A stretch of 64,000 bases of DNA from a virus (lineage: Duplodnaviria > Heunggongvirae > Uroviricota > Caudoviricetes). Positions 5,198-59,161 of this stretch are shown piece after piece; within the stretch, counting starts at the first letter, position 1, and each line of letters begins with the position of its first letter. The stretch is from positions 1 through 64,000 of IMG/VR virus record IMGVR_UViG_3300029696_000106; one strand, written 5' to 3'. The notes beneath the pieces were generated by a model, which had not been told where the DNA came from, did not search any database, and saw only the letters and a list, made by a program, of their open reading frames with translations. Position numbers and translations under genes: made by a program.

Positions 5198-5216
5198 ATG
5201 CTCTCCTCCGTTTCCT

Positions 5217-7208: not shown

Positions 7209-7214
7209 TTTTCC

Positions 7215-9644: not shown

Positions 9645-9823
9645 CTTGTTCTCTCCTTTCCGCCCATCTGCTTTTCTCTTCGGGCAGTCACATATTCCCT
9701 CTACTGCGTGATATTATCAAGTAAATTCGGTGCAGAAAGACGGAGAATAATTCACCCGATTATTGTCCTATCTGCACCATCCAATATGTAAAGGCCCTGC
9801 CTGAAAAGACAGAGCCGCATCTT

Positions 9824-39595: not shown

Positions 39596-40074
39596 CAGCT
39601 TCCACCTCCTCCCAGCAGATTCTCCATCTCATCGGCTGCATCCGCAGGACCACCGTCCGAAGCAATGATCCGGCTTCGTGAGGACGGGGTCAGACCGAAC
39701 TGCTCCGCGAACTTGTTCATGATCTTCAGATAAGTTTGGGCGATAGATACCTGCGGCACTTGCTGCCAGTACCCGGACGGAGTCTTGACGATGGTGCCGT
39801 GCTGGGTGATGAACTCCTCTGCCTCTTTCCATCGGGCATAGGCCTGACAGTAACCGGCAAAGGCAGCCATATCTACTTCGGTCAGGATGCCGATGGCTTC
39901 CATCTGTTTGGCCAGTCTGCGCCATTCCTTCTTTGCTTCCGGCTCCAGCCACTTCGGACAGGCCGGCGCTTTCTTGTTGGGCTTCGGTTCGCTGGTATTC
40001 AGCGGATGCTTGCCCGGATTGCCTTCCAGTTCCTTCATGGCGGTCGGCTTTGGTTTTCTGCCTCTGGTAGCCAT
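39595..40074 (-). CDS. terminase small subunit, P27 family
   Basis: MATRGRKPKPTAMKELEGNPGKHPLN; AGGAGG RBS. Confidence 0.75.
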   Translation of the reverse strand: MATRGRKPKPTAMKELEGNPGKHPLNTSEPKPNKKAPACPKWLEPEAKKEWRRLAKQMEAIGILTEVDMAAFAGYCQAYARWKEAEEFITQHGTIVKTPSGYWQQVPQVSIAQTYLKIMNKFAEQFGLTPSSRSRIIASDGGPADAADEMENLLGGGGS

Positions 40075-40202
40075 TGGCATCTCCTCCTTTCTGCAAAAAT
40101 GGGTAAAGAAAAAGGACCTCCGAAGAAGTCCTTGAAATCTATATAAAACACATCGGATACGAGGCACAGCCCCTTTTCGGGGCGTGTACCTTTTTGGTGC
40201 TG

Positions 40203-40580
40203 TTATGCGTTGGGGTTGGCTTCCTTCCAAGCCTCGTACTCATCAACCAGCTCCGCTTCCTCGATGACCTGCCAGACGCTGCAGAAGCGGATTCTTTGCT
40301 GCTCGATCTCCGCTGCTGTCCAGTCTTCCGGCTTGCGGCTCATGTCGTGGTAGGCATCCATCTCCGCTTTCGTCCGGAAGAAAAGGATCTGCTTCAGCTT
40401 CAGCGTCTCCTCGTTGTTCCGCAGGCTGTACCGCCTGTCCTCTGCCGCCCTGCAAAGGCTTCCGAGGTCGCTGCAGCTGAGGGTCATGTCCTGCTTGAAG
40501 GCGATCTCGACGTCGATCAGCTTCTTCTCGGTATCGGCTCCCTGAATGTTCTTAAGATAGGTTTTTGCTTTGTTCGTCAT
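40203..40580 (-). CDS. hypothetical early protein
   Basis: Start MTNKAKTYLK after GGAGG; preceded by promoter cassette 1. Confidence 0.5.
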   Translation of the reverse strand: MTNKAKTYLKNIQGADTEKKLIDVEIAFKQDMTLSCSDLGSLCRAAEDRRYSLRNNEETLKLKQILFFRTKAEMDAYHDMSRKPEDWTAAEIEQQRIRFCSVWQVIEEAELVDEYEAWKEANPNA

Positions 40581-40599: not shown

Positions 40600-40690
40600 T
40601 TTTGTTTTCCGTAGGGCTTTCCCCTTCGTTGTGACTGTATATTACCGTCACCGCCGGATACTATCAAGCGGCTATGCTGCACGATCATAT
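40600..40690 (-). promoter_or_regulatory. promoter-leader cassette, copy 1
   Basis: Minus strand: GCCGCTTGATAGT-N17-GGTAATATACAGTCAC, then GAAGGGGAAAGCCC leader. Confidence 0.5.
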
Positions 40691-40779
40691 ACACCTCTTT
40701 TTGTCGGATTTATGTGTATTTCCACACTGGAAGAATCCGCCACTACGAGCAAAAGCCCCCGAAGGAGCTCTGCCCTTTT

Positions 40780-41064
40780 TCAGTGTGCGTTCCTGATGCA
40801 CCACTCGATTGCGTGACCGGCATCCGTGTAGGTCTCATCGGAAATCTTCAGAAGTTCCAGCCGGCACTCAATCGGTGACCAGCCTTCCTCCGGGTCTTCC
40901 ACAAAGCCGTAAACTGCTCCTTCCAGCATACCATTCCAGTTCATCTGGGCAACCAGAACCCTGTCACCGAACTGCATGATGCTGTCGTAGCAAGGTCTGA
41001 GTCGGTCGTAGAAGCTCTCGATGCTGATGTTGTTTTCCGGGAAGTCGATCAAATGCTTTTTCAT
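40780..41064 (-). CDS. hypothetical protein
   Basis: GGAGG RBS before MKKHLIDF. Confidence 0.5.
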   Translation of the reverse strand: MKKHLIDFPENNISIESFYDRLRPCYDSIMQFGDRVLVAQMNWNGMLEGAVYGFVEDPEEGWSPIECRLELLKISDETYTDAGHAIEWCIRNAH

Positions 41065-41087
41065 GGTGAATTCCTCCGTGTTTTCGT

Positions 41088-41170
41088 TTTTCCCTTGGGG
41101 CTTTCCCCTTTCGGTATGTGCATATTACCGTCAGGTGCAGAGGATAGCAAGCGGCTAAAGTACACGATCT
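41088..41170 (-). promoter_or_regulatory. promoter-leader cassette, copy 2
   Basis: GCCGCTTGCTATC-N-CTGACGGTAATATGCACATACCGAAAGGGGAAAGCCCCAAGGG. Confidence 0.5.
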
Positions 41171-41199
41171 TCCGTCTGGAATACCGGGCAGAATGTACA

Positions 41200-41439
41200 T
41201 CACTCTGCATCCTGCTCCATGAGTTCCACAATGGTGTCGTAGAAGAACTGCGGGTCATATGCCAGCGGTTCCCGTCCGGCTTCCTTATCCATCCTGATCT
41301 GGTCTTCCACCATATCCTCGGCATCCTCCAGCGTAAAAGCATCCTTATCGCTGTCATCCATGTGGTTGTAGATTTCCACGATGACATCCATCATCCGCTC
41401 TTCCATGTGCTTCTCCTTCTGGCGCATCCACGCCGCCAC
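41200..41439 (-). CDS. small acidic protein (hypothetical)
   Basis: 79 aa, Asp/Glu-rich. Confidence 0.4.
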   Translation of the reverse strand: MAAWMRQKEKHMEERMMDVIVEIYNHMDDSDKDAFTLEDAEDMVEDQIRMDKEAGREPLAYDPQFFYDTIVELMEQDAE

Positions 41440-41477
41440 ATCTGCCCCTGTGTGGGGCTGTGTCGGGGGCTGTCGGT

Positions 41478-41669
41478 TTATCTGGTCATCCGTCCCAGCA
41501 GGTAGGCTTCTTCCATTGCTTTCTGGATGCCCCAGACCGGAACCTCAATGAAGTCCTCGCTGTCATTGTCGCGGGCTTCGAGGTCACCCCGGCTGTCTAC
41601 CGCTACCATCAGGCGCTTGGCGATCTCCAACAGGGCTTTTTCCTCTTCCTTGGTGATGTTCTTCTTCAT
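41478..41669 (-). CDS. hypothetical protein
   Basis: GGAGG RBS before MKKNITKEE. Confidence 0.45.
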   Translation of the reverse strand: MKKNITKEEEKALLEIAKRLMVAVDSRGDLEARDNDSEDFIEVPVWGIQKAMEEAYLLGRMTR

Positions 41670-41695
41670 GATGGTTTCCTCCGTTTTTCTTGGTT

Positions 41696-41760
41696 TTCCG
41701 TTTCGGTATGTGCATATTACCGTCTATGCCACACACTATCAAGCGGCTATACTACACAAA
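41696..41760 (-). promoter_or_regulatory. promoter-leader cassette, copy 3 (shortened leader)
   Basis: GCCGCTTGATAGTGTGTGGCATAGACGGTAATATGCACATACCGAAACGG. Confidence 0.45.
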
Positions 41761-41839
41761 GATAGCCACCCGGAACTGTGCGTATTACGGCAGAAGAAAA
41801 GGGCCGCCGTTTCCGGCAAGCCCCGTGTGTTTCTCTGGC

Positions 41840-42286
41840 TTAGTAGTCTTCTTCCTCGTCGTAGTCCTCTTCGTCCCAGTCATCTTCCTCTTCATCCCAG
41901 CTGTCATCCTGGTCTTCTTCCTCATCTTTGAAGTCCCACATATCTTCAGTCGGCTGGGTTCTAAGGTCTGGATTCTGCTCGACATAATCGACAACCGCTC
42001 CGCAAAGGATATCCATGACCTTTTCGTAGGCGTCCTCGCTGAAGATCTCCCAAAGCCCTGCGGTCAGGCAGCTGACCTCTGCGTTACCCTTTGCGATCAG
42101 GAATCGGGCTGCCGGGTTGCAGGTTTCCTTGCCGTAGGCAATGTTCACCATGTCACCATCGTTGTAAAAGCGGTAGGCGATGCGGCTCATTGCCCTTACC
42201 AGTTCCCCTGCAAGGCTGTCTGCCTTGCCCGTCTCCGGTACCAGTTCCTTGAAAAGTTTATTGATGCGGTCTTCGTTCTTCGTCAT
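41840..42286 (-). CDS. acidic protein with a poly-D/E/W C-terminal tail (DNA-mimic-like)
   Basis: C-terminus DEEEDQDDSWDEEEDDWDEEDYDEEEDY. Confidence 0.5.
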   Translation of the reverse strand: MTKNEDRINKLFKELVPETGKADSLAGELVRAMSRIAYRFYNDGDMVNIAYGKETCNPAARFLIAKGNAEVSCLTAGLWEIFSEDAYEKVMDILCGAVVDYVEQNPDLRTQPTEDMWDFKDEEEDQDDSWDEEEDDWDEEDYDEEEDY

Positions 42287-42310
42287 TGTCATATCCTCCA
42301 TTTTTGTTGT

Positions 42311-42392
42311 TTCCCTTGGGGCTGTTCCCCTTTCGGTGACTGTATATTACCGTCACCCTGGAACACTATCAAGCGGCTAAACTACACGATCA
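42311..42392 (-). promoter_or_regulatory. promoter-leader cassette, copy 4
   Basis: GCCGCTTGATAGTGTTCCAGGGTGACGGTAATATACAGTCACCGAAAGGGGAACAGCCCCAAGGG. Confidence 0.5.
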
Positions 42393-42501
42393 TCAAGCCC
42401 TTTAATTGTCATATTTATGTGCTTTTTACGCCATCTTTCGGAAGACCAACACGAGCAAAAGGCTGGTCATTTCCAGCCCCTTGCGCCTGTCGGTCTTGCC
42501 T

Positions 42502-42762
42502 TTAGCGGATGATTTCGAGGTAGCTTATGTTACCCCAGCAGTCCGTTCCCTTGAAGCGGATGTGCTTGTCGTTTTCCCTGTCGAGGGTGAATTTCCGCAG
42601 GAGCTTCATCTTCTGGATGCGGTTCAGAAGATCCTTGCCGTTCTTCGCATCCTCAACGGCATCCCTGATCTCGACCACCGCACTGTCGCTTCCGTACCAG
42701 AGGTTGCTGAGTGCCTCTGGAATTCCGTTTGCAAGGTAAAGGCTGATTTTTGTGTAAGTCAT
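42502..42762 (-). CDS. hypothetical protein
   Basis: RBS GAGAGGAG. Confidence 0.45.
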   Translation of the reverse strand: MTYTKISLYLANGIPEALSNLWYGSDSAVVEIRDAVEDAKNGKDLLNRIQKMKLLRKFTLDRENDKHIRFKGTDCWGNISYLEIIR

Positions 42763-42777
42763 GTTTTTGTTCTCCTC

Positions 42778-42984
42778 TCAGAATGTCATCGTTTCCAGAA
42801 TCTCATCCGCGCCTGTTTCCCAGTCGTGGCGGCTAAGTTCGATTTTGCTGTACATCTCTGCGCTGTCCGGCTCATCGAAAAGCCGGAAGCATTCTCTTGC
42901 CAGCTCCTCGCTGGTGTGCTGTTGGATTTCATCTGGCTGTCCATCCAGCCGTGTAAAGGTGATCTCGTAAGTGTAGCGTTCCAT
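42778..42984 (-). CDS. hypothetical protein
   Basis: 68 aa, acidic. Confidence 0.45.
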   Translation of the reverse strand: MERYTYEITFTRLDGQPDEIQQHTSEELARECFRLFDEPDSAEMYSKIELSRHDWETGADEILETMTF

Positions 42985-42995
42985 GTTCTTTGCCC

Positions 42996-43065
42996 CTTTC
43001 GTTTTGGTAGCTGTATATTACCGTCACTGCCGGACACTATCAAGCGGCTAAAGTACACGATCATC
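42996..43065 (-). promoter_or_regulatory. promoter-leader cassette, copy 5
   Basis: GCCGCTTGATAGTGTCCGGCAGTGACGGTAATATACAGCTACC. Confidence 0.5.
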
Positions 43066-43124
43066 TGCGCCCTGAACTGGTGGATTTATGTGTTTATCCG
43101 GGGAGGTTTCCCTCCCCATTTTTC

Positions 43125-43301
43125 TTAGCTGAACATCTCTGCCGTGTCATCGTCGATCCAGAGGTGCATGCCGTCTGCTTCCATGATTGCGTGGTCTTCA
43201 TGAACCTCGGTGATGATTCCTTCCCGGCTTCCGCTACCATCAAATTCGTTCCAGTGCCATGTTGTCTTTCTTCCTTTTTTCCATGTTCTCCAATCAGTCA
43301 T
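43125..43301 (-). CDS. hypothetical protein
   Basis: Start MTDWRTWKKG after AAGGAGG; the longer ORF-track version translates the promoter cassette. Confidence 0.4.
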   Translation of the reverse strand: MTDWRTWKKGRKTTWHWNEFDGSGSREGIITEVHEDHAIMEADGMHLWIDDDTAEMFS

Positions 43302-43320
43302 TCTGCTGTCCTCCTTTGCT

Positions 43321-43385
43321 TTTTGTAGCTGTATATTACCGTCACTGCCCTGTGATAGCAAGGCCATAAAACGTCATATTATCAA
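43321..43385 (-). promoter_or_regulatory. promoter-leader cassette, copy 6 (variant -35 region)
   Basis: TTATGGCCTTGCTATCACAGGGCAGTGACGGTAATATACAGCTACA. Confidence 0.45.
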
Positions 43386-43510
43386 CGATCTTCCCCCTTC
43401 ATGTTTGGTACATATATGACCCCTGATTGACTTGCTATATATGTGTTTCTGCGGCATTATACACACAACGAAAGCAAAGAAAACCAAACCAAAAACGGAG
43501 GACAAAAACC

Positions 43511-43762
43511 ATGAAAAAGACCATTACAGAAGTTGAAACCGCAATCGAAAACCGCATCGCAGAGCTTGAAGAAGAATACGAGCTGGACATTTACGACCGC
43601 AACGACATCCGGGAAGAAGAATACCAGAAAGCCGGATGGCGGCACGACCCTTTCCCAGAGGAGCTTGAGGAAGAGGACGAAGAAGAGGAAGAGGATTGGC
43701 ACTACCACAGCATAGAGGAACGACTGAACGAGGTCGGCATGAGCATGAGGGATTTCTTCTAA
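43511..43762 (+). CDS. small acidic protein on the plus strand (hypothetical)
   Basis: GGAGG RBS before MKKTITEVE; EELEEEDEEEEEDWHYH. Confidence 0.45.
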   Translation: MKKTITEVETAIENRIAELEEEYELDIYDRNDIREEEYQKAGWRHDPFPEELEEEDEEEEEDWHYHSIEERLNEVGMSMRDFF

Positions 43763-43962
43763 GGAATCCCCAGAGAGGCTCCCCAGCAGAGGCTGGGGCT
43801 CTGCCTCGTATCCCCCGTTTTGGTTTGGTATGATATGCAAAACCGCTGCCAGATGTTTGTGTACATTATGGCGGCGGTTCTCCTTGCTATTGTTGCTTTC
43901 CAGAGGTAATATACAGTAAACTGGAAGGGGGTTCTCATTCTTTTGAGGCCCCCATTTTCCGT

Positions 43963-44154
43963 CTAATCGGCTTCGCCCTGCATTGCCTGATGCATCACCC
44001 TGCGGTTATGCGCTATGGCTTTCTTTTTCAGGTCCCTTTTCCATCTGCGGATGGTTACTGCCTTGCAGTGATTTCTCGACCATTCGTATTCATCCAGAAT
44101 GTATCTGCCGCCGTGTTCCCTCTCGCCATAAGCCGGCATCTTTCTGTGTCCCAT
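43963..44154 (-). CDS. small basic protein (hypothetical)
   Basis: AGGAGG RBS; 63 aa. Confidence 0.4.
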   Translation of the reverse strand: MGHRKMPAYGEREHGGRYILDEYEWSRNHCKAVTIRRWKRDLKKKAIAHNRRVMHQAMQGEAD

Positions 44155-44226
44155 AGGCTCCTCCTGTTAAACTAAGCCCTCCCGGTCTTTTCTGGCCGAG
44201 AGGGTATTTTTTCTAATTGTGGTATC

Positions 44227-44598
44227 TTATTCCGGCTTCGTTCCGTCATCCATCTGGATGACTGCCATCTGCTCGAATATGCTGACGAATGCCTCCGGCA
44301 CCCAGAATCGTTCCCTGAATTTCTGGATAAGGTCTTGGGGCAGCTCTGCGAAATCCTCCTCTCCCAGTCCGCAGATGAAGAAGTTTCCCTTGATGGGCTG
44401 CTCCAGTTCCGGGATGTATCTGCTGAATGGCTTCTCGGTGAACAGCCCGTTGTCATCGGTGACCAGGGCGGCGCGTTCTTCCCACGGGTATGTGGCTGTG
44501 ATGCAGTCGCAGTCGAGGATGCGATAGAACTCTTTCAGGGAGTTTTCAATGTCCACCACCTGCGGATGCTCCATCGGCTTGATCAGAAGGACTTTCAT
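44227..44598 (-). CDS. DUF3846-domain protein
   Basis: MKVLLIKPMEHPQVVDIENSLKEFYRIL...GNFFICGL pattern is typical of DUF3846 on ICEs and phages. Confidence 0.55.
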   Translation of the reverse strand: MKVLLIKPMEHPQVVDIENSLKEFYRILDCDCITATYPWEERAALVTDDNGLFTEKPFSRYIPELEQPIKGNFFICGLGEEDFAELPQDLIQKFRERFWVPEAFVSIFEQMAVIQMDDGTKPE

Positions 44599-45062
44599 TC
44601 GACCCAGCCCCCTTTCACGATTGCCCAGTCTGCAAGATGCATCTTCTGCTGTCCGCTCCATGCAATGTCCTCTAACGCTTCCTCAGTTCCGCAGCGGTTG
44701 CAGATCTGAATGTCCGCCCTTCGGCTGAGTGCCTGCTGCTGATGGTCGTAGCAGTCAGGCTTTGCTCCGCACCTGGGGCAACGTGGGCCGGTCTGTCGCG
44801 TTTTACCAAGGCGGTCGAGCGACACCTTGACCTCGGCATCCGTTGCCACACGGTGGCAACTGTCCGCACCGTAGGAAACGTTCAGATGGCTTCTGGTATC
44901 CCAGCTCACTAAGATGTTTCCGGCATCATCGACCCCGTTGCAGGTTCCCTGCGTTCCGATGGGCGGTGCCTGCCTGTCATCCATCTCATCGAGGACGATC
45001 CGGCATCCGACCGGGAACTCTTTTCTCAACTTCTTGACCGTTTTCTGATCTGCGAAATTCAT
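44595..45062 (-). CDS. DUF4314-domain protein with a C-terminal Cys4 zinc ribbon
   Basis: FPVGCRIVLDEMDDRQAPPIGTQGTCNGVDDAGNILVSWD; CPRCG...CNRCG. Confidence 0.6.
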   Translation of the reverse strand: MNFADQKTVKKLRKEFPVGCRIVLDEMDDRQAPPIGTQGTCNGVDDAGNILVSWDTRSHLNVSYGADSCHRVATDAEVKVSLDRLGKTRQTGPRCPRCGAKPDCYDHQQQALSRRADIQICNRCGTEEALEDIAWSGQQKMHLADWAIVKGGWVE

Positions 45063-45538
45063 GCCTGCACCTCCTCGATCATCCGCTGGGCGGCATCCTT
45101 ATCCATGCATTCCTTCAGCGCACCTTCGAGGATGTGCATCGGGAAGCGGAATGCCTTATAGCCGTCATGCAGGACTTTGTAGTAATACCGGCTCGGTGCG
45201 CGGTGTCCAAAGTCGTTCTCCATGATGTAGACCATTGCGGTCACCATCTCCGGCTCTGCCCCTTCCCGGAGCAGTTCGATGTTCAGGTCTTCCTTGCGGT
45301 AGTAGTTCGGGTAGCCCTCATAGAGGTCGAGGTTCTCTTCGTCCCTTTCCGAGATCTCCCACACCAGAACCGGCGTGTTCTTCTTCGGGTTCGGTGCGAT
45401 GGTGGCGCAGCCGCGGAACAAAAGCTCCCAGCCTGCCAGCACCGCCTGTCCTGCAATTTTTGCATCCGGGCATCGGTCTGCCATCTGCTCCACCGACAGG
45501 TTGCTGCCGTAGGCGATGTAATATTTCTTGTTCTTCAT
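45059..45538 (-). CDS. gamma-glutamyl cyclotransferase-like (AIG2/GGCT fold) protein
   Basis: YYIAYGSNLSVEQMADRCPDA...YEGYPNYY; start refined to MKNKKYY. Confidence 0.6.
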   Translation of the reverse strand: MKNKKYYIAYGSNLSVEQMADRCPDAKIAGQAVLAGWELLFRGCATIAPNPKKNTPVLVWEISERDEENLDLYEGYPNYYRKEDLNIELLREGAEPEMVTAMVYIMENDFGHRAPSRYYYKVLHDGYKAFRFPMHILEGALKECMDKDAAQRMIEEVQA

Positions 45539-45577
45539 TTGAATCTCTCCCTTCGGTTTTCTCCGCTCTTGTCTGGC

Positions 45578-45640
45578 GGTATGGTATATATCACTCTTTT
45601 GCCCTGATTTATCAAGGCCGATGTGCATCATATACTGCAC
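45578..45640 (-). promoter_or_regulatory. promoter cassette, copy 8 (variant)
   Basis: CCTTGATAAATCAGGGCAAAAGAGTGATATATACCATACC. Confidence 0.4.
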
Positions 45641-45668
45641 AATGTTTTTTGCTTTTGATCGTGTACTC

Positions 45669-46190
45669 TTACATCATCTGCCGCTTCTTCAGATACCGGA
45701 CGGCTTCCGTCCTTCCGATACTGGCTGCCAGTCCACGCTTCAGTGTGTCCAGCGGAAATCCCCAGTCGCTGTATCCGCCGTGCAGCAGTTCAAAATACTC
45801 GGCATCCGGGCAGCCAAGCCGCCGGTCCTCGTGCATCACATAAGCGATGCAGGGCTTTGCCTTTTTCATGCGGTTCCCGTTCAGGTTCCAGACCGGAAGC
45901 TGGAACTGCTTCTTGTAGTAGTATCGTGGGCAGCCCTCGTACCGGTCCAGCAGGAGCTCATCGTATTCTGAGAGCTTCCAGACCACTGCTGGTACGCTTT
46001 CATTGGCATCCTGCTCGATGGTGGCATAGCAGCCGGTCTTACTCTTTTTGAACAGGAGCCGGTAGCCCTTGATCTCGGTCGTGCCGACCACCACAGCGTA
46101 AGGGCATCTCTTTCCCATCCGCTCCATGTCGAGGTTGCTTCCGTAGGCAAGGTAATATCTGGATGGGACTCGGCTAATCAGTTCAAACAT
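45669..46190 (-). CDS. gamma-glutamyl cyclotransferase-like protein, paralogue 2
   Basis: YYLAYGSNLDMERMGKRCPYA...YEGCPRYYY. Confidence 0.6.
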   Translation of the reverse strand: MFELISRVPSRYYLAYGSNLDMERMGKRCPYAVVVGTTEIKGYRLLFKKSKTGCYATIEQDANESVPAVVWKLSEYDELLLDRYEGCPRYYYKKQFQLPVWNLNGNRMKKAKPCIAYVMHEDRRLGCPDAEYFELLHGGYSDWGFPLDTLKRGLAASIGRTEAVRYLKKRQMM

Positions 46191-46419
46191 CCGCCTCACC
46201 GTCCTCCCTGCCAGTGAATTCCACACCCTGGAAATCCTCCGTCCCAAGCTCGATCTGGCTGTCCTGCCACCAGTCCTCTGCCACACGCTGGGCTTCCTCC
46301 ACGGTCGGCTCTTTCATTTCGGATTCATAAATGGTCACCGTTCTCTGGTAGGTCTCAGTGATGGTCACCTTAAAGGCCCTGCCTCCCGGTGTGTTTTCAT
46401 TTTTTAACGTGCTTTTCAT
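46183..46419 (-). CDS. hypothetical protein
   Basis: 78 aa. Confidence 0.4.
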   Translation of the reverse strand: MKSTLKNENTPGGRAFKVTITETYQRTVTIYESEMKEPTVEEAQRVAEDWWQDSQIELGTEDFQGVEFTGREDGEADV

Positions 46420-46486
46420 AAACCTGCACCTCCTTCTACCACCTCAAGGGCGGTTGCCCGCCCAAAAGGTGCCCGTGCATCCCGGC

Positions 46487-47425
46487 TTATTTGTTCCGCC
46501 AGGATGCGTTGCCCTCCATGTTCCGCAGAAGGATCTCCCTTGCCGTTGCAAATTCATCCCCGATGAATCCCAGCCTCAGCATCCAGCACCGCATGGCGTA
46601 CTTTTCGTTGTCGGTCTGCTGGGGCTTCGGGCTTGCCGTTCTGACCATCTTAGCAAGCTGGCTCATTGCGAGGCAAAGCTGGATGTAGGCTTTCATCTCA
46701 CCGGCGTGCAGTCCGTTGCGCCTTCCGTCCGCTGGGTCTGCGAATTGGAAAAGGCGGAATTCAATGGTCCCTTTTGTGAAGGTGGCATGGAGGTTCAGCA
46801 TATGGTACCGGCTTGAATTGTAGTGGGCATTCCGGTTTTCCCAGCTGGAACCGTTGCCTTCGTACCAGATGTCTTCCAGCTTGCGCATGGTGGTCGGCTT
46901 CTCGCGGTTCAGCCGGTCGAGGAAGCGGTGGTTGACCACCTGGCAATATTGTCCGGTGCGCCCTGCATCGATCCGGATGGCTCTGCCGATCTGCTGTTCG
47001 TGCGCCGCCATGATGTTCACAAGGTTGCGGATGGTCTTTGCGGTGTGGTCGCCTTTGCCGATGTGGATGTGGACCCCGCATCCGCGGCTTGGGCCGCTCT
47101 TTGCGCCTGCCTTGCGGAGCAGCCGGATGATTTCCTGCAGGGGTTCGATGTCGTCGTAGGTGAGGATCGGGGTGACCAGTTCGCATTTTTCTGCGTCCGG
47201 TCCGTAGATGCTCACATTCCTCTGGAATTTCCAAACCCTGCCCTGCTGGTCCTTGCAAGCCCAGCTGTAATATCCGTACTCGCCAGCGGCGTTCCATGCT
47301 CTGGTTCCGAAGTACTCAGCGACCTTTCTTGCCGCTTTTTCTCTGGTGATGTTGTTCATCTCGATCTCAACTCCGATGGTCTGGTTCTTCATGGCTTCAA
47401 TCTGCTCTCTTGTTTTATCGTTCAT
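46487..47425 (-). CDS. putative amidoligase (GS/GCS2-like, Amidoligase_2 family)
   Basis: IGVEIEMNN...GCGVHIHIG...TIEFRLFQF motifs; start MNDKTREQ after AAAGGAG. Confidence 0.55.
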   Translation of the reverse strand: MNDKTREQIEAMKNQTIGVEIEMNNITREKAARKVAEYFGTRAWNAAGEYGYYSWACKDQQGRVWKFQRNVSIYGPDAEKCELVTPILTYDDIEPLQEIIRLLRKAGAKSGPSRGCGVHIHIGKGDHTAKTIRNLVNIMAAHEQQIGRAIRIDAGRTGQYCQVVNHRFLDRLNREKPTTMRKLEDIWYEGNGSSWENRNAHYNSSRYHMLNLHATFTKGTIEFRLFQFADPADGRRNGLHAGEMKAYIQLCLAMSQLAKMVRTASPKPQQTDNEKYAMRCWMLRLGFIGDEFATAREILLRNMEGNASWRNK

Positions 47426-47451
47426 GGTATGTTCTCCTTTGTTTTTTCCTT

Positions 47452-47522
47452 GTTTTCCCTTTCGGTATGTGCATATTACCGTCAGGTGCACATAATAGCA
47501 AGGCCATAAAAGAACATATATT
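47452..47522 (-). promoter_or_regulatory. promoter-leader cassette, copy 7
   Basis: TTATGGCCTTGCTATTATGTGCACCTGACGGTAATATGCACATACCGAAAGGG. Confidence 0.45.
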
Positions 47523-47657
47523 CGACAAATATCGAGAGGAATGATCGTGTACATTTCTGCGGTTTATCCGCTTGATAATGTACATTTTCAGAGTTAATAT
47601 CGGTACAATGGAAGAGAGGCTCGCATATTTTCCGGCCCCCATTGGGGGCTTGGGAGC

Positions 47658-48785
47658 TTACGCTCCCGCCTCCAGCATCTGCGCCGTGTCTGCCCCACAG
47701 TCGGGCTGTGTCGGCTCGGCATCTGCCGATGCGATCATTTTCCCAGGGGAGGCACTGCCCTCCTGCGCCGCCTGTTTCGCGGCTTTCAGGGCATCACGCT
47801 TTGCCTTTTCCCTTGCAAGGAACTTCTGTGCTTCCTCATCCGTGCGGAAAGCCGCATGGCCGGAAAGGTTCTCCATCAAAATCTTTCTGGTCTGCTTGAA
47901 GTCCGGGCCATTCATGCCAAGGCGCAGAAGCCAAGTTCGCAAAGCGTATTTCTCATTGGAATCGTTCACCTCTTTTGCCTGAATCCGCTTCTGGCTGATA
48001 GCCTGCTGGTTCATCAGAATCGCAAGGTGTCCGAATGCAGTCAGGTGGTCATAATCCGGTGCCATCGGGAAACCTGTAAAGGTAACTTTCTCATCTGTGA
48101 TCGTCAAGCCTTCCAGGGAAGCACCATGCTGTTCTTCATACTCTTTGAGCGCATGAATGAAATTTGCTACCGCATAAGTGCAGCTGTCATCTTTCAAGGC
48201 ATCCACCAGCCCCTTATCGGCAAGGAAAATGCCGTCCGTTGCCTTGCTGACGAGTTCCCCTCTGCTGTAGATCAGATTGACCAGGTTGCGAAGCGATACG
48301 CCGTTATGCTGACTGATCGGGAAAGAAAAATCCGCATCCAGAGGGATTGCTTCCTCTGCCACAGGCTGTTCCCCACCTTCTTCCGATGGGATTTGCTCTG
48401 CACTCTCCATTTCGGATTCCCCATCTTCCTCGGCTTCTTCTGAATCCCCTTCACAGGTCTCCTGCTCATTTGGATCTACTGCCGGAATCATCTGGACACC
48501 CTCGGCAAGGTCTACCGCAGGCTGTTCGTCTGCAGTTTCCTGCAAAGTCTCTGCATCCACATCCTCGCCGCCACGGATCAGGCCTTCATTCATCAGCGTA
48601 GTCAGCAATTCCAGATCTGCATTTTCCGCCTCCACCAGCAGGTTGCCATCCCGGTCAATGGTGTAATTTCCGATGTCATACGCATACCGAGGGGCCTTGG
48701 TGTAGTAAGGATGAATGCCTGTCAGCTCCTCCATCCGCTTTGCCAGTGTTTTGCGCTCCTCTACATTTAGTTCAAACTTCAACAT
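47658..48785 (-). CDS. amidoligase-related paralogue with a divergent N-terminal half and an acidic insert
   Basis: Shares SLRNLVNLIYSRGELV and C-terminal NEKYALRTWLLRLGMNGPDFKQTRKILMENLSGHAAFR with 46487..47425, but lacks the GVEIE motif. Confidence 0.5.
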   Translation of the reverse strand: MLKFELNVEERKTLAKRMEELTGIHPYYTKAPRYAYDIGNYTIDRDGNLLVEAENADLELLTTLMNEGLIRGGEDVDAETLQETADEQPAVDLAEGVQMIPAVDPNEQETCEGDSEEAEEDGESEMESAEQIPSEEGGEQPVAEEAIPLDADFSFPISQHNGVSLRNLVNLIYSRGELVSKATDGIFLADKGLVDALKDDSCTYAVANFIHALKEYEEQHGASLEGLTITDEKVTFTGFPMAPDYDHLTAFGHLAILMNQQAISQKRIQAKEVNDSNEKYALRTWLLRLGMNGPDFKQTRKILMENLSGHAAFRTDEEAQKFLAREKAKRDALKAAKQAAQEGSASPGKMIASADAEPTQPDCGADTAQMLEAGA

Positions 48786-48827
48786 GATTCATCGCTCCTT
48801 TTTCATTATTTTGTTTTTATGCATCCC

Positions 48828-48895
48828 GATGTTTTTTTCGGTAGCACATATATCACTCTGAACCGGGCAAATAGCAAGTCCATTTCCGAATAATC
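48828..48895 (-). promoter_or_regulatory. promoter cassette, copy 9 (variant)
   Basis: ACTTGCTATTTGCCCGGTTCAGAGTGATATATGTGCTACC. Confidence 0.4.
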
Positions 48896-49010: not shown

Positions 49011-51131
49011 TTATTCTTCCAGACCTGCGCACCATGCAATGCCGGCGAGAACAAAGTATACACACGGAAGTGCGACACCGTTGCCCCAGAGCTTGTACTC
49101 TGCTGCATCCGAATACGGATCAGCCAGCCATTTTCGCAGCTGTTTCTCTGTCTTCTGCTTCTTAGCCTGTGTCACGATCCGTCTGTGGGTTTCAAACACA
49201 TCTGCCCAGAAAGTGAGTTCTTCCTCAGTCGGATTTTCTGTTCCAAGGTCTCTGCACCACCAGTCCGGGAAGCCTTGCAGTCTGGCACACTCGGTTGGTG
49301 TCAGGCGGCGGACGGTATAGGTCACTGGCGTGGACTGTACTTCTGGGTTGTCGATGACCAGACGGTCATTGAAAGCATCCTGCCCATTAAAGCCGCTGGG
49401 ATGTGCCCCAGTCGCCACCGTTCCCATAACTCCCTCGTTCAGATGCGGTGCCGGTGCGATGGTGGTCGGGTCTTTGTAATCCCGTGCCATCAAAGTCGGT
49501 GCAACTTCTTTCTCCACCTGCATATAGGAACCAGTTGTCATGGCATACACACTTTCTGGTGCGCAGACTGCATGGCGGTCTGTCGCATCTAAGGTGAAGC
49601 AGACATCCTCATTGACACCATCCCCCTGCGGACCATTCTCATCCTTACGGCCAATCATGTTGCCCTGCAGGACGAAGGTCTGCTGCTTCATCCCTAGCTC
49701 TGCTGCAAGTGCTGCTGACTTCTCTCCCAGATCCCGGACTTCATCCCTCTGATTCTGTGTAAAAGCAACCGGCTCTACTACACAGATGCCGCCCTGGTTA
49801 CAGGTCGGGTCTCCACCACTGCGGTCAAGAGTCCGGGATGTATCTGCTTCATAAAAACCGCTATGCGGATTATCGGACATCATGGAATGACTGGCTTTAG
49901 AGCAGACACCGTAGCATTTCGGAACGAACAGCGTCTGGTCGTTGTTGCAGCCGAGGGTGGCTGACTTTTCTTCCTGCCAGATGGCTCCCTTGCCGCCGCC
50001 CTCACATCCGGAGCGGATCTTCAATGTGACTGCCGGGGAGTTCTCAACATCTTTCACCGGGCTTTCCACCGACTTTTCAACACCATCCATGACCAGTGGA
50101 ACATTGCCGCCACCCGTACCACACCGGCTGGTCAGGGTCTGCACCTTGCCATCCTCGGAAATCTTCACCCGGCTGTCTGCAGGATGGTTTTCCAAAGCAA
50201 TAGCGGCAGGCACAACACCAGCCCGGAGAGTTGGTGACCGTTCCTCTTCATACCCGATGCTTCTTGCGTTGGCAGAGTGTTCCGTGCAGAAACCGGCTGC
50301 TTCCAGAACACACGGAGGATGGTGTGCTTCTGCTCGAAGCGTTGATGTCACTTCCTTTGTCACATCCATTCTCTCCCCATCCTGATCATTCAGGCAGATT
50401 CTTCCTGTGCCGCCTGCCTTTCCAGTGCTGCTTTCAACACAGGTGGCAGCTCTTTGCCACGCACGGAAGCTCTCCGCAGAATACCGAGACACGCCTTCGG
50501 ACTCAAATAATACTTTTGGGGCACTCTGGTCTGCAAAATCTGCGACAAGGAAGATTCGTTTTCTACGCTGGGGCACGCCCCACCACTGTGCATCAAGGAC
50601 TCGATACGCGACACTCCATCCGTCTCCCAAATAGTAGTCAGCATCCGGCCATCCCTTTTTCTCAGGCGCAGGCACCTGGGCAGACGGTTCTTTAACACCG
50701 ATGACGGCTTCGAGGACTGCCTTGAAGTCCTGTCCTTTGTTTGAGGAGAAGGCCCCTGGCACATTCTCCCACACGATAAATCTTGGTTTTTCTCCATTGG
50801 TCTTACACCTCATTTCCTTCACGATTCGGATTGCTTCGTAAAACAGGCTGGACCGTGAACCATCCAGACCGTCCCGCTTACCGGCGATAGACATATCCTG
50901 ACAGGGACTTCCAAAAGTAATGATGTCAACAGGCGGCAAGTCCGCACCGCTGATGGCAGACACATCACCATAGTGCCTCACCCACGGCAGGCGCTTGGTC
51001 GTGACTCGGATGGCAAAGGGCTCCACCTCGCTGCTCCACAGCGGAGTGATCTGCCCGGTCAAAAGTCCACCCAACGGGAAACCCCCGGAACCATCAAAGA
51101 GGCTGCCGAGTGTCAGCTGTTTATTCTCCAT
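49011..51131 (-). CDS. DNA (cytosine-5) methyltransferase with an unusually long variable region (~705 aa)
   Basis: LFDGSGGF (motif I), GSPCQDMS (PC motif), ENVPG (ENV motif), C-terminal GNGVALP. Confidence 0.85.
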   Translation of the reverse strand: MENKQLTLGSLFDGSGGFPLGGLLTGQITPLWSSEVEPFAIRVTTKRLPWVRHYGDVSAISGADLPPVDIITFGSPCQDMSIAGKRDGLDGSRSSLFYEAIRIVKEMRCKTNGEKPRFIVWENVPGAFSSNKGQDFKAVLEAVIGVKEPSAQVPAPEKKGWPDADYYLGDGWSVAYRVLDAQWWGVPQRRKRIFLVADFADQSAPKVLFESEGVSRYSAESFRAWQRAATCVESSTGKAGGTGRICLNDQDGERMDVTKEVTSTLRAEAHHPPCVLEAAGFCTEHSANARSIGYEEERSPTLRAGVVPAAIALENHPADSRVKISEDGKVQTLTSRCGTGGGNVPLVMDGVEKSVESPVKDVENSPAVTLKIRSGCEGGGKGAIWQEEKSATLGCNNDQTLFVPKCYGVCSKASHSMMSDNPHSGFYEADTSRTLDRSGGDPTCNQGGICVVEPVAFTQNQRDEVRDLGEKSAALAAELGMKQQTFVLQGNMIGRKDENGPQGDGVNEDVCFTLDATDRHAVCAPESVYAMTTGSYMQVEKEVAPTLMARDYKDPTTIAPAPHLNEGVMGTVATGAHPSGFNGQDAFNDRLVIDNPEVQSTPVTYTVRRLTPTECARLQGFPDWWCRDLGTENPTEEELTFWADVFETHRRIVTQAKKQKTEKQLRKWLADPYSDAAEYKLWGNGVALPCVYFVLAGIAWCAGLEE

Positions 51132-58595: not shown

Positions 58596-59161
58596 GCCTG
58601 TGCCTCCCTTCCCGTACAAGCCTGCATCGCAAACTGCTTCTTAACAGCAGCTTCGATCTCCTGCTTTTTCTTGGCCGAAGTCACACGGCAGAGCCGATTG
58701 CACAGAACCATCTTGTCAATAGTCGTGATCTGCTCCACCAGCAGAATGGATTCTTCCAGACACTCATCCCGGAGCATTTCGCAGTCTCTCCCGGTGACCG
58801 GAATGTGTACCGGCAGCTCCAGCTTCTTCAGCTTGGAACTCATCGGGATCACCGTGATGATCGGAGAATTGCGGTTTGCCATATCGTTGCTGATGACCAG
58901 CACCGGGCGGTTTCCGCTCTGCACCGAAGTACCATAATGATTCCCCAGTTCTGCAAACCAGATCTCATACTGCTTCGGTATCTTTTGTACCGGCCACTGA
59001 TCAGCTATCATCTCGTGAAACTGAGGTTCTTTCGATGTCAGCTTACAGGATGCCTCTGATCTGCGGTGCGGCTTCGTTTTTCCACGCTGGTTGATGTATT
59101 TATTGACATGGATCTTGCGGCCGCGCTCTACCGGCCGGGCATTACTTTTCTTTCGTCCCAT
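58592..59161 (-). CDS. MazF/PemK (EndoA-like) endoribonuclease-fold protein with a ~50-aa basic N-terminal extension
   Basis: MIADQ...IWFAELGNHYGTSVQSGNRPVLVISNDMANRNSPIITVIPMSSKLKKLELPVHIPV closely follows B. subtilis EndoA; a strong GGAGGT RBS sits only at the upstream ATG. Confidence 0.65.
   Translation of the reverse strand: MGRKKSNARPVERGRKIHVNKYINQRGKTKPHRRSEASCKLTSKEPQFHEMIADQWPVQKIPKQYEIWFAELGNHYGTSVQSGNRPVLVISNDMANRNSPIITVIPMSSKLKKLELPVHIPVTGRDCEMLRDECLEESILLVEQITTIDKMVLCNRLCRVTSAKKKQEIEAAVKKQFAMQACTGREAQA

What the first reader, a model, noticed from the sequence alone, without database searches (positions are those of the whole stretch)
40600..48895. Nine or more near-identical promoter-leader cassettes, one before nearly every small gene or gene pair of the accessory region
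A ~70-90-nt element recurs upstream of consecutive minus-strand gene starts at 40600, 41088, 41696, 42311, 42996, 43321, 45578, 47452 and 48828. Read on the minus strand, each contains a conserved GCCGCTTGATAGT (-35-like TTGATA/TTGCTA), a 17-nt spacer and GGTAATAT(A/G)CA (-10 TAATAT). In four copies an inverted repeat GTGAC-N11-GTCAC brackets the -10. A conserved leader GAAAGGGGAA(A/C)AGCCCC(AAGGG) forms a short GGGG/CCCC hairpin before the RBS. The ORF track shows the same element as recurring pseudo-peptides (GDGNIQ, HLTVICTYRKGK) at several ORF 5' ends. I do not know of a temperate phage with this many near-identical early promoters carrying a shared operator-like inverted repeat. It implies one factor, either a repressor or one of the two sigma-region-4/ArpU-like proteins at 59389..60361, switching the whole accessory arsenal at once.
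Basis: seen in the sequence. Interest (0 to 1): 0.7.

Follow-up and report, generated by a model that had tools for sequence, protein, structure and literature searches.

The report
Repeated promoter cassettes that shuffle phage genes
A common human-gut prophage puts nearly the same short promoter-plus-leader sequence in front of each small accessory gene, and related phages have gained, lost and reordered those genes by recombining between the copies, as the PeSL cassettes of T4-like phages do.

Summary
The repeat is real. Seven tight minus-strand copies share CTTGMTA-N12-GACGGTAATAT, where none is expected by chance. Three more copies lie on the plus strand, and a tenth-type copy sits before the prophage's serine-integrase operon. 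"Near-identical" applies only to the core: paralogues are about 58% identical over 100 nt.

Among 237 non-redundant copies from related gut Clostridia prophages, only the -35 and extended -10 blocks are invariant, with a 17-nt spacer. 97% of copies precede an RBS and ORF. 48% follow a terminator-like hairpin. These are host sigma-A-type promoter–leader modules heading self-contained one- or two-gene units.

Relatives differ by presence, replacement and order of units. At least three chimeric cassettes show crossovers inside the shared core. This works like the PeSL "mobile regulatory cassettes" of T4-like phages, so it is a new variant of a known kind.

The "operator-like" inverted repeat is perfect in two window copies and is not conserved across the family. 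The proposed sigma/ArpU-like proteins match no such profile. The same promoter class precedes serine-integrase genes in many divergent Clostridia phages, and a conserved terminator separates the last cassette from terS. Both argue against a late-promoter reading. The invariant GACGG/AGAG bases and a helically phased upstream box remain unexplained.

The parts
40620..40692 (-). Cassette 1 (tight): -35 TTGATA, 17-nt spacer, GACGGTAATAT, perfect GTGAC/GTCAC inverted repeat. Heads the p125 gene (40203-40580).
41102..41173 (-). Cassette 2 (tight): TTGCTA -35, leader with GGGG-AAAG-CCCC hairpin. Heads the Nmad4 gene (40780-41064).
41694..41765 (-). Cassette 3 (tight). Heads DUF6900 (41478-41669) and a 68-aa gene (41200-41406).
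42325..42396 (-). Cassette 4 (tight): perfect GTGAC/GTCAC inverted repeat and GGGG/CCCC leader hairpin. Heads a 148-aa acidic protein gene (41840-42286).
42997..43068 (-). Cassette 5 (tight). Heads a 68-aa gene (42778-42984) and an 86-aa gene (42502-42762).
43317..43386 (-). Cassette 6 (tight, subtype with upstream region 10 nt longer). Heads a 58-aa gene (43125-43301).
47453..47526 (-). Cassette 7 (tight, subtype with upstream region 10 nt longer). Heads the long unit Amidoligase_2 (46487-47425), DpnD/PcfM (46183-46419) and GGACT (45669-46190).
45581..45640 (-). Looser cassette: GTGCAG box 25 nt upstream of TTGATA (45610-45615), AGAGTGATATAT -10 region. Heads the second GGACT (45059-45538), DUF4314 (44595-45062), DUF3846 (44227-44598) and a 63-aa gene (43963-44154).
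48841..48880 (-). Looser cassette: TTGCTA (48872-48877), CAGAGTGATATAT -10 region. Heads a 375-aa amidoligase-associated gene (47658-48785).
43427..43475 (+). Plus-strand cassette relative (CTTGCTAT-N-GCGGCATTATACAC, leader ACAACGAAAGCAAAG). Drives the plus-strand 83-aa acidic protein gene 43511-43762.
43853..43915 (+). 'Orphan' plus-strand promoter copy (TTGCTA-17-TAATAT, CAGAGG class). Points into the 3' end of the minus-strand operon and is followed by a bidirectional terminator-like hairpin (43926-43952).
47541..47600 (+). 'Orphan' plus-strand promoter copy (TTGATA-17-TAATAT), back to back with cassette 7. Hexamers invariant in all 16 distinct relatives examined.
40748..40770 (-). Terminator-like hairpin plus T-tract closing the Nmad4 unit.
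   Evidence: read directly; class statistics
41791..41824 (-). Terminator-like hairpin plus T-run closing the 148-aa gene unit.
42452..42478 (-). Terminator-like hairpin plus T-run closing the 68-aa/86-aa unit.
40112..40133 (-). Strong intrinsic terminator (9-bp stem, TTCG loop, T-run) between the last cassette unit (p125) and the terS RBS. TerS reads 39595-40080.
   Evidence: position conserved in 55 distinct relatives, with compensatory stem changes
9692..9720 (-). Promoter of the same class (ACTTGATA-N12-AGAGGGAATATGTGAC), directly upstream of three tandem large serine recombinase genes (7215-9644, 5217-7208, 2900-5197).

Best explanation
Each copy is a compact regulatory module read by the host RNA polymerase with its housekeeping (sigma-A-type) sigma factor. 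The module has four parts in order:
- an upstream GTGYAS box, set 15 or 25 nt before the -35;
- a -35 element, CTTG(A/C)TA;
- a 17-nt spacer of free sequence;
- an extended -10, (T)GACGG-TAATAT or AGAG-N-TAATAT.

The transcript probably starts at the conserved ACCGAAAGGG. A purine-rich leader of 20-80 nt runs to a strong RBS.

Together with the terminator of the preceding unit, this makes each accessory gene or gene pair an autonomous, insulated transcription unit, like a moron (a gene carrying its own promoter and terminator). All units share one promoter design, so they are expressed as one class. That class most likely also contains the integrase operon, which would make it an early/establishment or prophage-expressed class and not the late class. 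A conserved terminator keeps this transcription out of terS and the structural genes.

The modules also share 24-30 nt of identical core and about 60-130 nt of similarity. They therefore serve as portable homology. Recombination between two copies deletes, inserts, replaces or reorders the units between them without breaking genes or their expression.

Shown here, from sequence: the repeat, its conservation pattern, its position relative to genes and terminators, the variable unit content among relatives, and the chimeric cassettes.

Inferred: promoter activity, the sigma factor used, the transcription start, the timing of expression, and that the recombination is homologous rather than site-specific.
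For: - Chance is excluded.
- The element is family-wide. It occurs in at least 119 viral-contig stretches and 103 genome stretches, with up to 7 copies per locus. These include isolates of Blautia, Faecalibacterium intestinale and Clostridium fessum, on contigs of 0.2-1 Mb, so these are prophages.
- In 237 non-redundant copies the information content is about 2 bits at CTTG.TA and GACGGTAATAT and about 0-0.5 bits in the spacer.
- When copies are anchored on the -35 alone, the -10 position shows TAATAT, TATAAT, TATACT and similar forms, which is TAnnnT behaviour.
- 389 of 402 distinct copies are followed by an RBS and ORF starting 18-78 nt (median 44) after the -10. 192 of 402 are preceded by a hairpin plus T-run, against 24-37 in shuffles.
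- The proteins of different units are unrelated to one another, so only the regulatory part is repeated.
- Unit content and order differ among 71 multi-cassette loci.
- The L161 junction cassette has the 5' half of window cassette 3 and the leader of cassette 2. The crossover lies in the shared GACGGTAATATGCACATACCGAAA and exactly removes the DUF6900 unit.
- Further chimeras occur in L028/L054, L123 and L173.
- Orthologous cassettes are more alike (77%) than paralogues (58%), so each cassette travels with its gene.
- The same promoter class sits before serine recombinase genes in the window and in many divergent phages.
- A conserved terminator lies before terS.
- The closest precedent, the PeSL, has the same anatomy and behaviour (PMC2839356; PMC4122927).
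Against: - There are no transcript data, so promoter activity, start site and timing are inferred.
- The bases GACGG (or AGAG-N) just upstream of the -10 and the GTGYAS box are conserved more strongly than a plain sigma-A promoter needs. An additional or different reader of the motif is therefore possible.
- Part of that apparent invariance is built into how the copies were collected. The search pattern required GACGGTAATAT, although and the unbiased integrase set show related forms.
- No separate promoter for terS and the late operon was found downstream of the terminator. How late genes are transcribed is therefore unexplained, and the last cassette could contribute.
- Some indel breakpoints among relatives lie at RBS/ATG positions rather than in cassettes. 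Cassette recombination is thus not the only source of variation.
Confidence: 0.6

Rival explanations
1. The cassettes are promoters that depend on, or are shut off by, one dedicated DNA-binding factor. This could be a repressor or activator, phage-encoded or a conserved host regulator. It would recognise the extended -10 (GACGG/AGAG) and/or the upstream GTGYAS box, so that integrase and the accessory genes form one switchable regulon. This is the first reader's idea in generalised form, and it is compatible with the recombination role.
For: - Conservation goes beyond the sigma-A hexamers.
- The upstream box sits at two discrete distances 10 nt apart, 15 or 25 nt, which is one helical turn and suggests contact on one face of the DNA.
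- The window encodes several HTH proteins: 716-1057 HTH_3 and 1529-2227 MerR, and 59843-60361 with a weak KorA-like HTH match.
- In L189 an HTH_38/Sigma70_r4_2-like gene lies directly upstream of the promoter.
Against: - The inverted repeat proposed as operator is not conserved.
- GACGGTAATAT never occurs outside a promoter context in the window.
- The motif is kept across phages whose integrases are only 36-58% identical and across host families. Immunity repressors and their operators usually diverge fast (own knowledge).
- The 15/25-nt phasing is also what the proximal and distal UP-element subsites for the RNA polymerase alpha subunit would give (own knowledge).
- No candidate protein could be tied to the motif.
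Confidence: 0.25
2. The cassettes are late-class promoters that need a phage late activator or sigma-like protein of the RinA/ArpU/Ltr type, such as the proteins at 59389-60361. The last copy would be the promoter of the packaging and structural operon.
For: - In every relative a cassette lies one or two small genes upstream of terS.
- No other promoter for terS was found.
- Ltr-type activators act just upstream of terS in many Firmicutes phages (PMC3753634).
- Homologues of the 172-aa protein occur on many of the viral contigs that carry cassettes.
Against: - A strong terminator, conserved in position, lies between the last cassette unit and the terS RBS in all relatives.
- The same promoter class drives serine-integrase genes, which are not late genes.
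- The hexamers and spacing are those of the housekeeping sigma.
- The candidate proteins match no sigma, ArpU or RinA profile.
Confidence: 0.07
3. The conserved core is a site for site-specific recombination. The three tandem large serine recombinases, whose own promoter carries the motif, would move units in and out in an integron-like way.
For: - Clean cassette-to-cassette junctions exist.
- The motif is associated with serine recombinase genes.
- Some copies have partial dyad symmetry around TAATAT.
Against: - Dyad symmetry is absent from most copies.
- Crossovers fall in the longest block of identity, as homologous recombination predicts, and other breakpoints lie outside the cassettes.
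- The motif's position and orientation relative to each ORF fit a promoter.
- Nothing distinguishes a fixed crossover dinucleotide.
Confidence: 0.04
4. The element acts as a folded RNA or single-stranded DNA structure, a hairpin with the conserved GGTAATAT in its loop. It could be a processing site or a single-strand promoter of the kind found in plasmid leading regions.
For: - Some copies have complementary arms of different sequence around the -10: GTGAC/GTCAC and TATGTGCA/TGCACATA.
- There is modest enrichment of inverted repeats.
- The gene families (Amidoligase_2, DUF3846, DUF4314, DpnD/PcfM) are typical of conjugative-element leading regions (own knowledge).
Against: - Three quarters of copies lack an inverted repeat of 5 bp or more.
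- There are no Rfam matches.
- Leader folding energy is only slightly below that of shuffles.
- The -35 and -10 lie on one strand at duplex-promoter spacing.
- The element is in a tailed prophage with terminase, portal, capsid, tail and lysis genes.
Confidence: 0.03

Closest known systems
PeSLs (promoter-early stem-loops), the 'mobile regulatory cassettes' of T4-like myoviruses (Arbiol et al. 2010, PMC2839356; Comeau et al. 2014, PMC4122927)
   Same: - Both are repeated intergenic modules of about 100 nt made of a housekeeping-sigma-type promoter, a stem-loop or terminator, an SD sequence and a start codon.
- Both are concentrated in a hyperplastic region of small accessory genes of unknown function.
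- In both, stem-loops may lie upstream of, between or over the hexamers, and often use G-run/C-run stems.
- In both, closely related phages differ by indels and replacements whose junctions lie inside the modules.
   Different: - There is no sequence homology between the two.
- The host and phage type differ: a temperate siphovirus-like prophage of gut Clostridia here, lytic myoviruses of Gram-negative bacteria for PeSLs.
- The stem-loop component here is less regular. A terminator is upstream in 48% of copies, and an inverted repeat over the -10 in about 27%.
- An extended -10 and a phased upstream box are conserved here.
- The same promoter class also drives the integrase operon.
- Promoter and terminator activity and mini-circles are shown experimentally for PeSLs only.
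Morons of lambdoid and other temperate phages (gene plus own promoter and terminator; Hendrix and colleagues; discussed in PMC2839356)
   Same: - Both are autonomous promoter-gene-terminator units.
- Both are inserted between core modules of a temperate phage, here between the DNA-methylase/replication genes and terS.
   Different: Classical morons have unrelated regulatory sequences and are thought to arrive by illegitimate recombination. Here the units share one regulatory module, and that module itself is the recombination substrate.
Late-operon promoters controlled by Ltr-superfamily activators (RinA, ArpU, LtrA/B/C) upstream of terS in Firmicutes phages (PMC3152322, PMC3753634)
   Same: - Both are regulatory sequences lying upstream of terS in a Firmicutes temperate phage.
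- Small HTH proteins are encoded in the early region in both cases.
   Different: - Ltr systems have one promoter, with activator-binding repeats, directly before terS.
- Here there are at least 10 copies, a terminator lies between the last copy and terS, the same class sits at the integrase, and no Ltr-family protein is detectable.
Stoperators and start-associated sequences of mycobacteriophages (Cluster A L5-type repressor sites; Cluster K SAS) (own knowledge)
   Same: Both are a short asymmetric motif repeated many times in intergenic positions, in one orientation relative to transcription.
   Different: - Stoperators are repressor sites scattered through the genome and are mostly not promoters.
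- Here the motif is always the -10 region of a complete promoter.
- Here the motif is conserved across very divergent phages.
Host-takeover module of Bacillus phage SPO1 and the early regions of T5/T7 (own knowledge)
   Same: Both have many strong, similar host-polymerase promoters packed in front of small early genes.
   Different: Those are lytic phages, and no role of the promoters in gene shuffling has been described for them.

Membership tests
PeSL-type mobile regulatory cassette | Housekeeping-sigma-like -35/-10 promoter with optimal spacing, repeated in many intergenic sites | tested here: met
   TTGMTA-17-TAATAT occurs 9 times exactly in the window against 0.2 expected. The hexamers are invariant and the spacer free in 237 copies. 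The -10 varies in the TAnnnT manner. This is sequence-level evidence only.
PeSL-type mobile regulatory cassette | Associated stem-loop acting as terminator or attenuator | tested here: inconclusive
   A hairpin plus T-run lies upstream in 192 of 402 copies, against 24-37 in shuffles. An inverted repeat of 5 bp or more over the -10 occurs in 65 of 237 copies. A leader GGG..CCC hairpin occurs in 77 of 237. The feature is present in many copies but not all, and activity was not tested.
PeSL-type mobile regulatory cassette | SD sequence and start codon of a small accessory ORF immediately downstream, clustered in a variable (hyperplastic) region | tested here: met
   389 of 402 copies have an RBS and ORF 18-78 nt downstream. 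All tight window copies lie in 40.6-47.6 kb.
PeSL-type mobile regulatory cassette | Related phages differ by indels or replacements whose junctions lie in the cassettes | tested here: met
   Unit content and order vary in 71 loci. Chimeric junction cassettes occur in L161/L123, L028/L054 and L173.
PeSL-type mobile regulatory cassette | Excised mini-circles; measured promoter and terminator activity | not testable with these tools
   Needs inverse PCR and reporter assays.
PeSL-type mobile regulatory cassette | Descent: T4-like myovirus, homologous motif | tested here: not met
   The window is a siphovirus-like temperate prophage with P27-family TerS, TerL, tail endopeptidase, lysis genes and serine integrases. 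The motif is unrelated in sequence. It works like a PeSL but is not a member by descent.
Ltr (RinA/ArpU/LtrA-C)-dependent late promoter | Phage encodes an Ltr-superfamily activator | tested here: not met
   The proteins at 59389-59841 and 59843-60361 gave no ArpU, RinA, Sigma70_r4 or DUF1492 hit in Pfam, PHROGs or NCBIfam, or in 25 remote homologues. Only KorA at E=0.005, below cut-off. The structure models were too poor to use.
Ltr (RinA/ArpU/LtrA-C)-dependent late promoter | Single promoter directly upstream of terS, restricted to the late operon | tested here: not met
   There are at least 10 copies. A conserved terminator lies between the last copy and terS. The same class precedes integrase genes.
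Integron cassette array (attC sites) | Adjacent integron integrase, promoterless cassettes, attC with conserved imperfect palindrome | tested here: not met
   No tyrosine integron integrase was found. The integrases are large serine recombinases 31 kb away. Each unit has its own promoter. Dyad symmetry is not conserved.
Repressor 'stoperator'-type sites | Motif also occurs away from promoters and is bound by the immunity repressor | tested here: not met
   GACGGTAATAT occurs only inside the 7 complete promoters. Binding is not testable here.
Moron | Gene flanked by its own promoter and terminator within a phage operon context | tested here: met
   Units at 40780-41173, 41840-42396 and 42502-43068 each have a cassette upstream and a hairpin plus T-run downstream.

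The most novel reading that the evidence does not exclude
The shared core is not only a promoter. It would also be the recognition site of a dedicated recombination system. The prophage's three tandem large serine recombinases, whose own operon is headed by the same motif, would excise and insert promoter-gene units site-specifically. That would make the accessory region an integron-like, self-expressing cassette array in a temperate phage. A less radical version is that a conserved, still unknown factor reads the extended -10 and the phased upstream box and co-switches integrase and the accessory/anti-defence genes as one 'establishment regulon' across Clostridia phages.
Probability: 0.05. 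Interest if true: 0.9.

Novelty: new variant of a known kind. Interest (0 to 1): 0.5.

Why it matters
1. It extends promoter-mediated modular shuffling, so far described for lytic T4-like phages of Gram-negative bacteria, to a very common lineage of temperate phages of human-gut Clostridia. That lineage occurs in Blautia, Faecalibacterium, Clostridium fessum, Mediterraneibacter and hundreds of metagenome contigs. It gives a concrete mechanism for how their accessory, probably anti-defence or DNA-modification, genes turn over.

2. It defines a compact promoter architecture of box, -35 and extended -10. This architecture is conserved in front of accessory genes and serine-integrase genes in hundreds of Clostridia phages. 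Either it shows what a strong promoter looks like in these poorly studied bacteria, or it marks an undiscovered regulator.

3. The roughly 240 natural variants of promoter plus 5' leader form a ready-made parts list for gene expression in gut Clostridia, for which genetic tools are scarce.

Tried and rejected
- Rfam, gathering threshold on the whole window and E<=1 on 39.5-49.2 kb: no RNA family matched.
- Hairpin or operator idea. Complementary arms around the -10 looked like covariation in the window. In 237 copies the enrichment is small, 65 against 44, and most copies have no such repeat. Rejected as a family feature.
- Concerted evolution. Paralogues within a genome are less alike than orthologues between genomes, so there is no genome-wide homogenisation.
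- Identity of the putative sigma/ArpU proteins. These searches gave nothing beyond a sub-threshold KorA-type HTH:
  - Pfam at E<=10, PHROGs and NCBIfam;
  - PDB sequence and profile searches;
  - a 5.8-billion-protein search, which found only unnamed close homologues;
  - an exhaustive HMMER search, which found 88 representatives, followed by Pfam on 25 remote homologues.
- Single-sequence AlphaFold models had pLDDT 70 and 55 with implausibly long helices. They were not used for fold search.
- Co-occurrence of the 172-aa protein with cassettes. They occur together in the core lineage, but this cannot be separated from shared ancestry.
- The GenBank phage collection gave only one unannotated 11-kb fragment similar to the region.
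- Literature searches for the motif strings GACGGTAATAT and AGAGGTAATAT and for DUF3846/DUF4314 found nothing relevant.
- Sporulation or alternative sigma consensus sequences (sigma-E, -K, -H, -D), compared by eye from memory, did not fit the spacing. This was not a formal test.

Full report
**Context.** The window is a tailed prophage with nearly all genes on the minus strand.
- From high to low coordinates it carries:
  - a primase/helicase (56139-58595);
  - HNH genes;
  - a ParB-N6/N4 methylase (51121-52392) and a 706-aa C5 methylase (49011-51131);
  - the accessory region (48785-40203);
  - a P27-family TerS (39595-40080) and TerL (37970-39595);
  - head and tail genes;
  - holin (12506-12925) and endolysin (9824-11302);
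  - three tandem large serine recombinases (9644-2900);
  - MerR and HTH_3 regulators.
- The accessory genes include Amidoligase_2, DpnD/PcfM, two GGACT, DUF4314, DUF3846, DUF6900, Nmad4 and several small ORFs with no family.
- Near-identical regions lie in contigs of 0.2-1 Mb from Faecalibacterium intestinale, Blautia spp. and Clostridium fessum isolates. The element is therefore temperate.

- CTTGMTA-N12-GACGGTAATATRCA has seven exact minus-strand matches where none is expected.
- The bare TTGMTA-N17-TAATAT has nine exact matches, all between 40.6 and 47.6 kb, against 0.2 expected.
- A profile built from related copies recovers the same seven sites and no others.
They keep the -35 and the position of the -10 but carry AGAGTGATATAT in place of GACGGTAATAT.
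- Three further copies are on the plus strand.
  - One drives the only plus-strand gene of the region (43511-43762).
  - Two 'orphans' (43884-43912, 47572-47600) point into the 3' ends of the upstream minus-strand genes.
- 'Near-identical' is too strong. Over 100 nt the seven tight copies are 42-74% identical.
- The GTGAC-N11-GTCAC repeat is perfect in two copies. The GGGG/CCCC leader hairpin is present in two or three.

**What the wider family shows.** Pattern scans retrieved at least 119 viral-contig stretches and 103 genome stretches, with up to seven copies each. From 519 profile hits I derived 237 non-redundant copies.
- Conservation is concentrated in CTTG(A/C)TA and (T)GACGGTAATAT, about 2 bits per position.
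  - The 12 spacer positions between them carry almost no information.
  - The first transcribed bases (ACCGAAAGGG) and an upstream stretch are moderately conserved.
- The search pattern required GACGGTAATAT, so I re-anchored on the -35 alone.
  - The -10 position then shows TAATAT, TATAAT, TATACT and GATATA forms.
  - These are preceded by GACGG, NATGG or AGAG-N.
  - This is how a housekeeping -10 hexamer varies.
- 97% of distinct copies are followed by an RBS and an ORF starting 18-78 nt (median 44) after the hexamer.
- 48% are preceded within 115 nt by a hairpin plus T-run, against about 7% in shuffles.
- The element is therefore a composite of terminator, promoter and leader. Each unit it heads is a self-contained transcription unit.

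**The proposed operator.** An inverted repeat of at least 5 bp bracketing the -10 occurs in 65 of 237 copies. Permuting left and right halves gives 44 on average, with a maximum of 56 in 200 permutations.
- The enrichment is small, and related copies are not independent.
- The right arm lies in poorly conserved columns.
- It is a feature of one subfamily and not a shared operator.
- The leader hairpin is likewise present in about a third of copies.
- No Rfam family matches.

**The cassettes are recombination substrates.**
- I called the genes between successive cassettes in 71 loci with three or more copies and clustered their products.
- The units have unrelated proteins, so only the regulatory part is repeated.
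- Relatives differ by:
  - presence or absence of units, for example the 58-aa, 68-aa and DUF6900 units;
  - replacement, for example DUF6900 plus the 68-aa gene versus cluster c11;
  - extra cassettes splitting a two-gene unit;
  - changed order, for example L180 versus L220, and L035/L138 versus the window.
- In L161 a single cassette stands where the window has cassettes 3 and 2 with the DUF6900 unit between them.
  - Its upstream flank, -35 and spacer are those of cassette 3, and its leader is that of cassette 2.
  - The switch lies inside the shared GACGGTAATATGCACATACCGAAA.
- A systematic comparison of 5' halves and leaders found further chimeras.
  - L028/L054 join the 5' half of cassette 6 to the leader of cassette 5, which deletes the 58-aa unit.
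  - L123 is of the same type as L161.
  - L173 is a third type.
- Orthologous cassettes (same downstream gene, different phage) are 77% identical and paralogues 58%. Each cassette normally travels with its gene, and exchanges are occasional events.
- Some breakpoints lie at RBS/ATG positions instead.

**Which polymerase or factor, and when?** This part is inference.
- Evidence against a late-promoter reading:
  - A strong intrinsic terminator (40112-40133) sits between the last cassette unit and the terS RBS. There is no room for a promoter after it.
  - Its position is conserved in 55 distinct relatives, while the stem sequence changes in a compensatory way. Cassette transcription is thus insulated from the late operon.
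  - A promoter of the same design (ACTTGATA-N12-AGAGGGAATATGTGAC) lies directly upstream of the first serine recombinase gene of the window.
  - 24 single-copy hits of the strict pattern elsewhere also precede large serine recombinases that are only 36-58% identical to one another.
- An unbiased sample of 72 distinct upstream regions of this recombinase family supports the same architecture.
  - 35 contain GGTAATAT.
  - The common form is GTGYAGTATAT - (A/G)CTTGMTA or CTGGATA - spacer - (T)AGAG(G)TAATATGTCAC - SD.
- The GTGYAS box sits 15 nt or 25 nt before the -35, one helical turn apart, in both accessory and integrase promoters.
- Three observations point to conserved host machinery, most simply sigma-A holoenzyme, rather than an immunity repressor or a phage-specific sigma:
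  - the hexamers match the housekeeping consensus;
  - the motif persists across very divergent phages and across host families;
  - it drives integrase.
- The box phasing could reflect alpha-subunit UP subsites (own knowledge).
- The extra conserved bases are not explained, so a dedicated factor remains possible. I give that 0.25.

**The candidate regulators.** The proteins at 59389-59841 and 59843-60361 have C-terminal segments that look HTH-like by eye.
- No library or PDB profile identifies them as sigma region 4, ArpU or RinA.
- They are not similar to each other.
- 25 remote homologues add only a sub-threshold KorA match.
- Structure models without an informative alignment were unreliable.

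**Comparison with known systems.**
- The closest match in anatomy and behaviour is the PeSL of T4-like phages. A PeSL has these features (PMC2839356; PMC4122927):
  - it combines a sigma-70-like promoter, a stem-loop, an SD sequence and a start codon;
  - it is repeated in hyperplastic regions;
  - it mediates indels and replacements;
  - it has been shown experimentally to form mini-circles.
- In the searched library PeSLs are reported only for T4-like phages.
- The present element is unrelated in sequence and lies in a temperate Firmicutes phage. It works like a PeSL but is not a member by descent.
- The units also fit the definition of morons.
- They do not fit Ltr-controlled late promoters, integron attC arrays or stoperators (see the membership table).

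**Verdict.**
- The 'promoter-leader cassette' reading is well supported at sequence level.
- The operator and sigma-factor parts of the interpretation are not supported.
- The main new point is that the cassettes double as recombination modules, and that their promoter design is shared with the integrase genes of many Clostridia phages.
- This is a new variant of a known kind and of moderate interest.

Noticed in passing
window 40112-40133 (-), with 40080 terS start: A strong intrinsic terminator lies about 30 nt before the terS RBS. Its position is conserved in 55 distinct relatives, with compensatory stem changes, and no promoter follows it. Late-operon transcription must therefore read through it by antitermination, or start in an unrecognised way. 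Some relatives carry an extra element of about 70 nt just upstream of it.
   Followed up: partly
window 9692-9720 (-); 2900-9644 (-): Three tandem large serine recombinase genes of 809, 663 and 765 aa follow the lysis genes. They are headed by a promoter of the same class as the accessory cassettes (AGAGGGAATAT form).
   Followed up: partly
L267-L346, L008, L021, L048, L189 and others: A conserved architecture precedes about 430-aa serine recombinase genes in hundreds of Clostridia phage contigs: GTGYAGTATAT box, then (A/G)CTTGMTA, then (T)AGAG(G)TAATATGTCAC. The box sits 15 or 25 nt from the -35, one helical turn apart. I found no description of this motif in the searched literature.
   Followed up: partly
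window 43884-43912 (+) and 47572-47600 (+): Two complete promoter copies point into the 3' ends of the upstream minus-strand genes. The first is followed by a bidirectional terminator-like hairpin, which would give a transcript of about 45 nt. The hexamers of the second are invariant in all 16 distinct relatives, including L215, where the upstream gene differs. They may produce antisense or insulating transcripts.
   Followed up: partly
window 40155-40173 (-) and 43795-43813 (+): A second repeat, GGGGCT(G/C)TGCCTCGTATCC, follows a GC hairpin at the 3' end of p125 and, inverted, at the 3' end of the plus-strand gene 43511-43762. None is expected by chance. Its function is unknown.
   Followed up: no
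window 58592-59161 (-): A 189-aa protein with a PemK/MazF-like toxin domain is encoded immediately upstream of, and overlapping, the D5-type primase/helicase gene (56139-58595).
   Followed up: no
window 59389-60361 (-): Two adjacent small proteins of 150 and 172 aa have HTH-like C-termini. They belong to a small family with no annotation (88 representatives in 1.8 billion proteins). They co-occur with the cassette-bearing phage lineage.
   Followed up: partly
window 29098-30502 (+): A plus-strand island of four genes, DUF3791, DUF3990 and two unknowns, sits inside the minus-strand tail region. It looks like another moron-type insertion without the cassette promoter.
   Followed up: no
window 40203-40580 (-): p125 is the gene that always lies between the last cassette and terS in the core lineage. 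It has no detectable family in Pfam, PHROGs or NCBIfam.
   Followed up: partly
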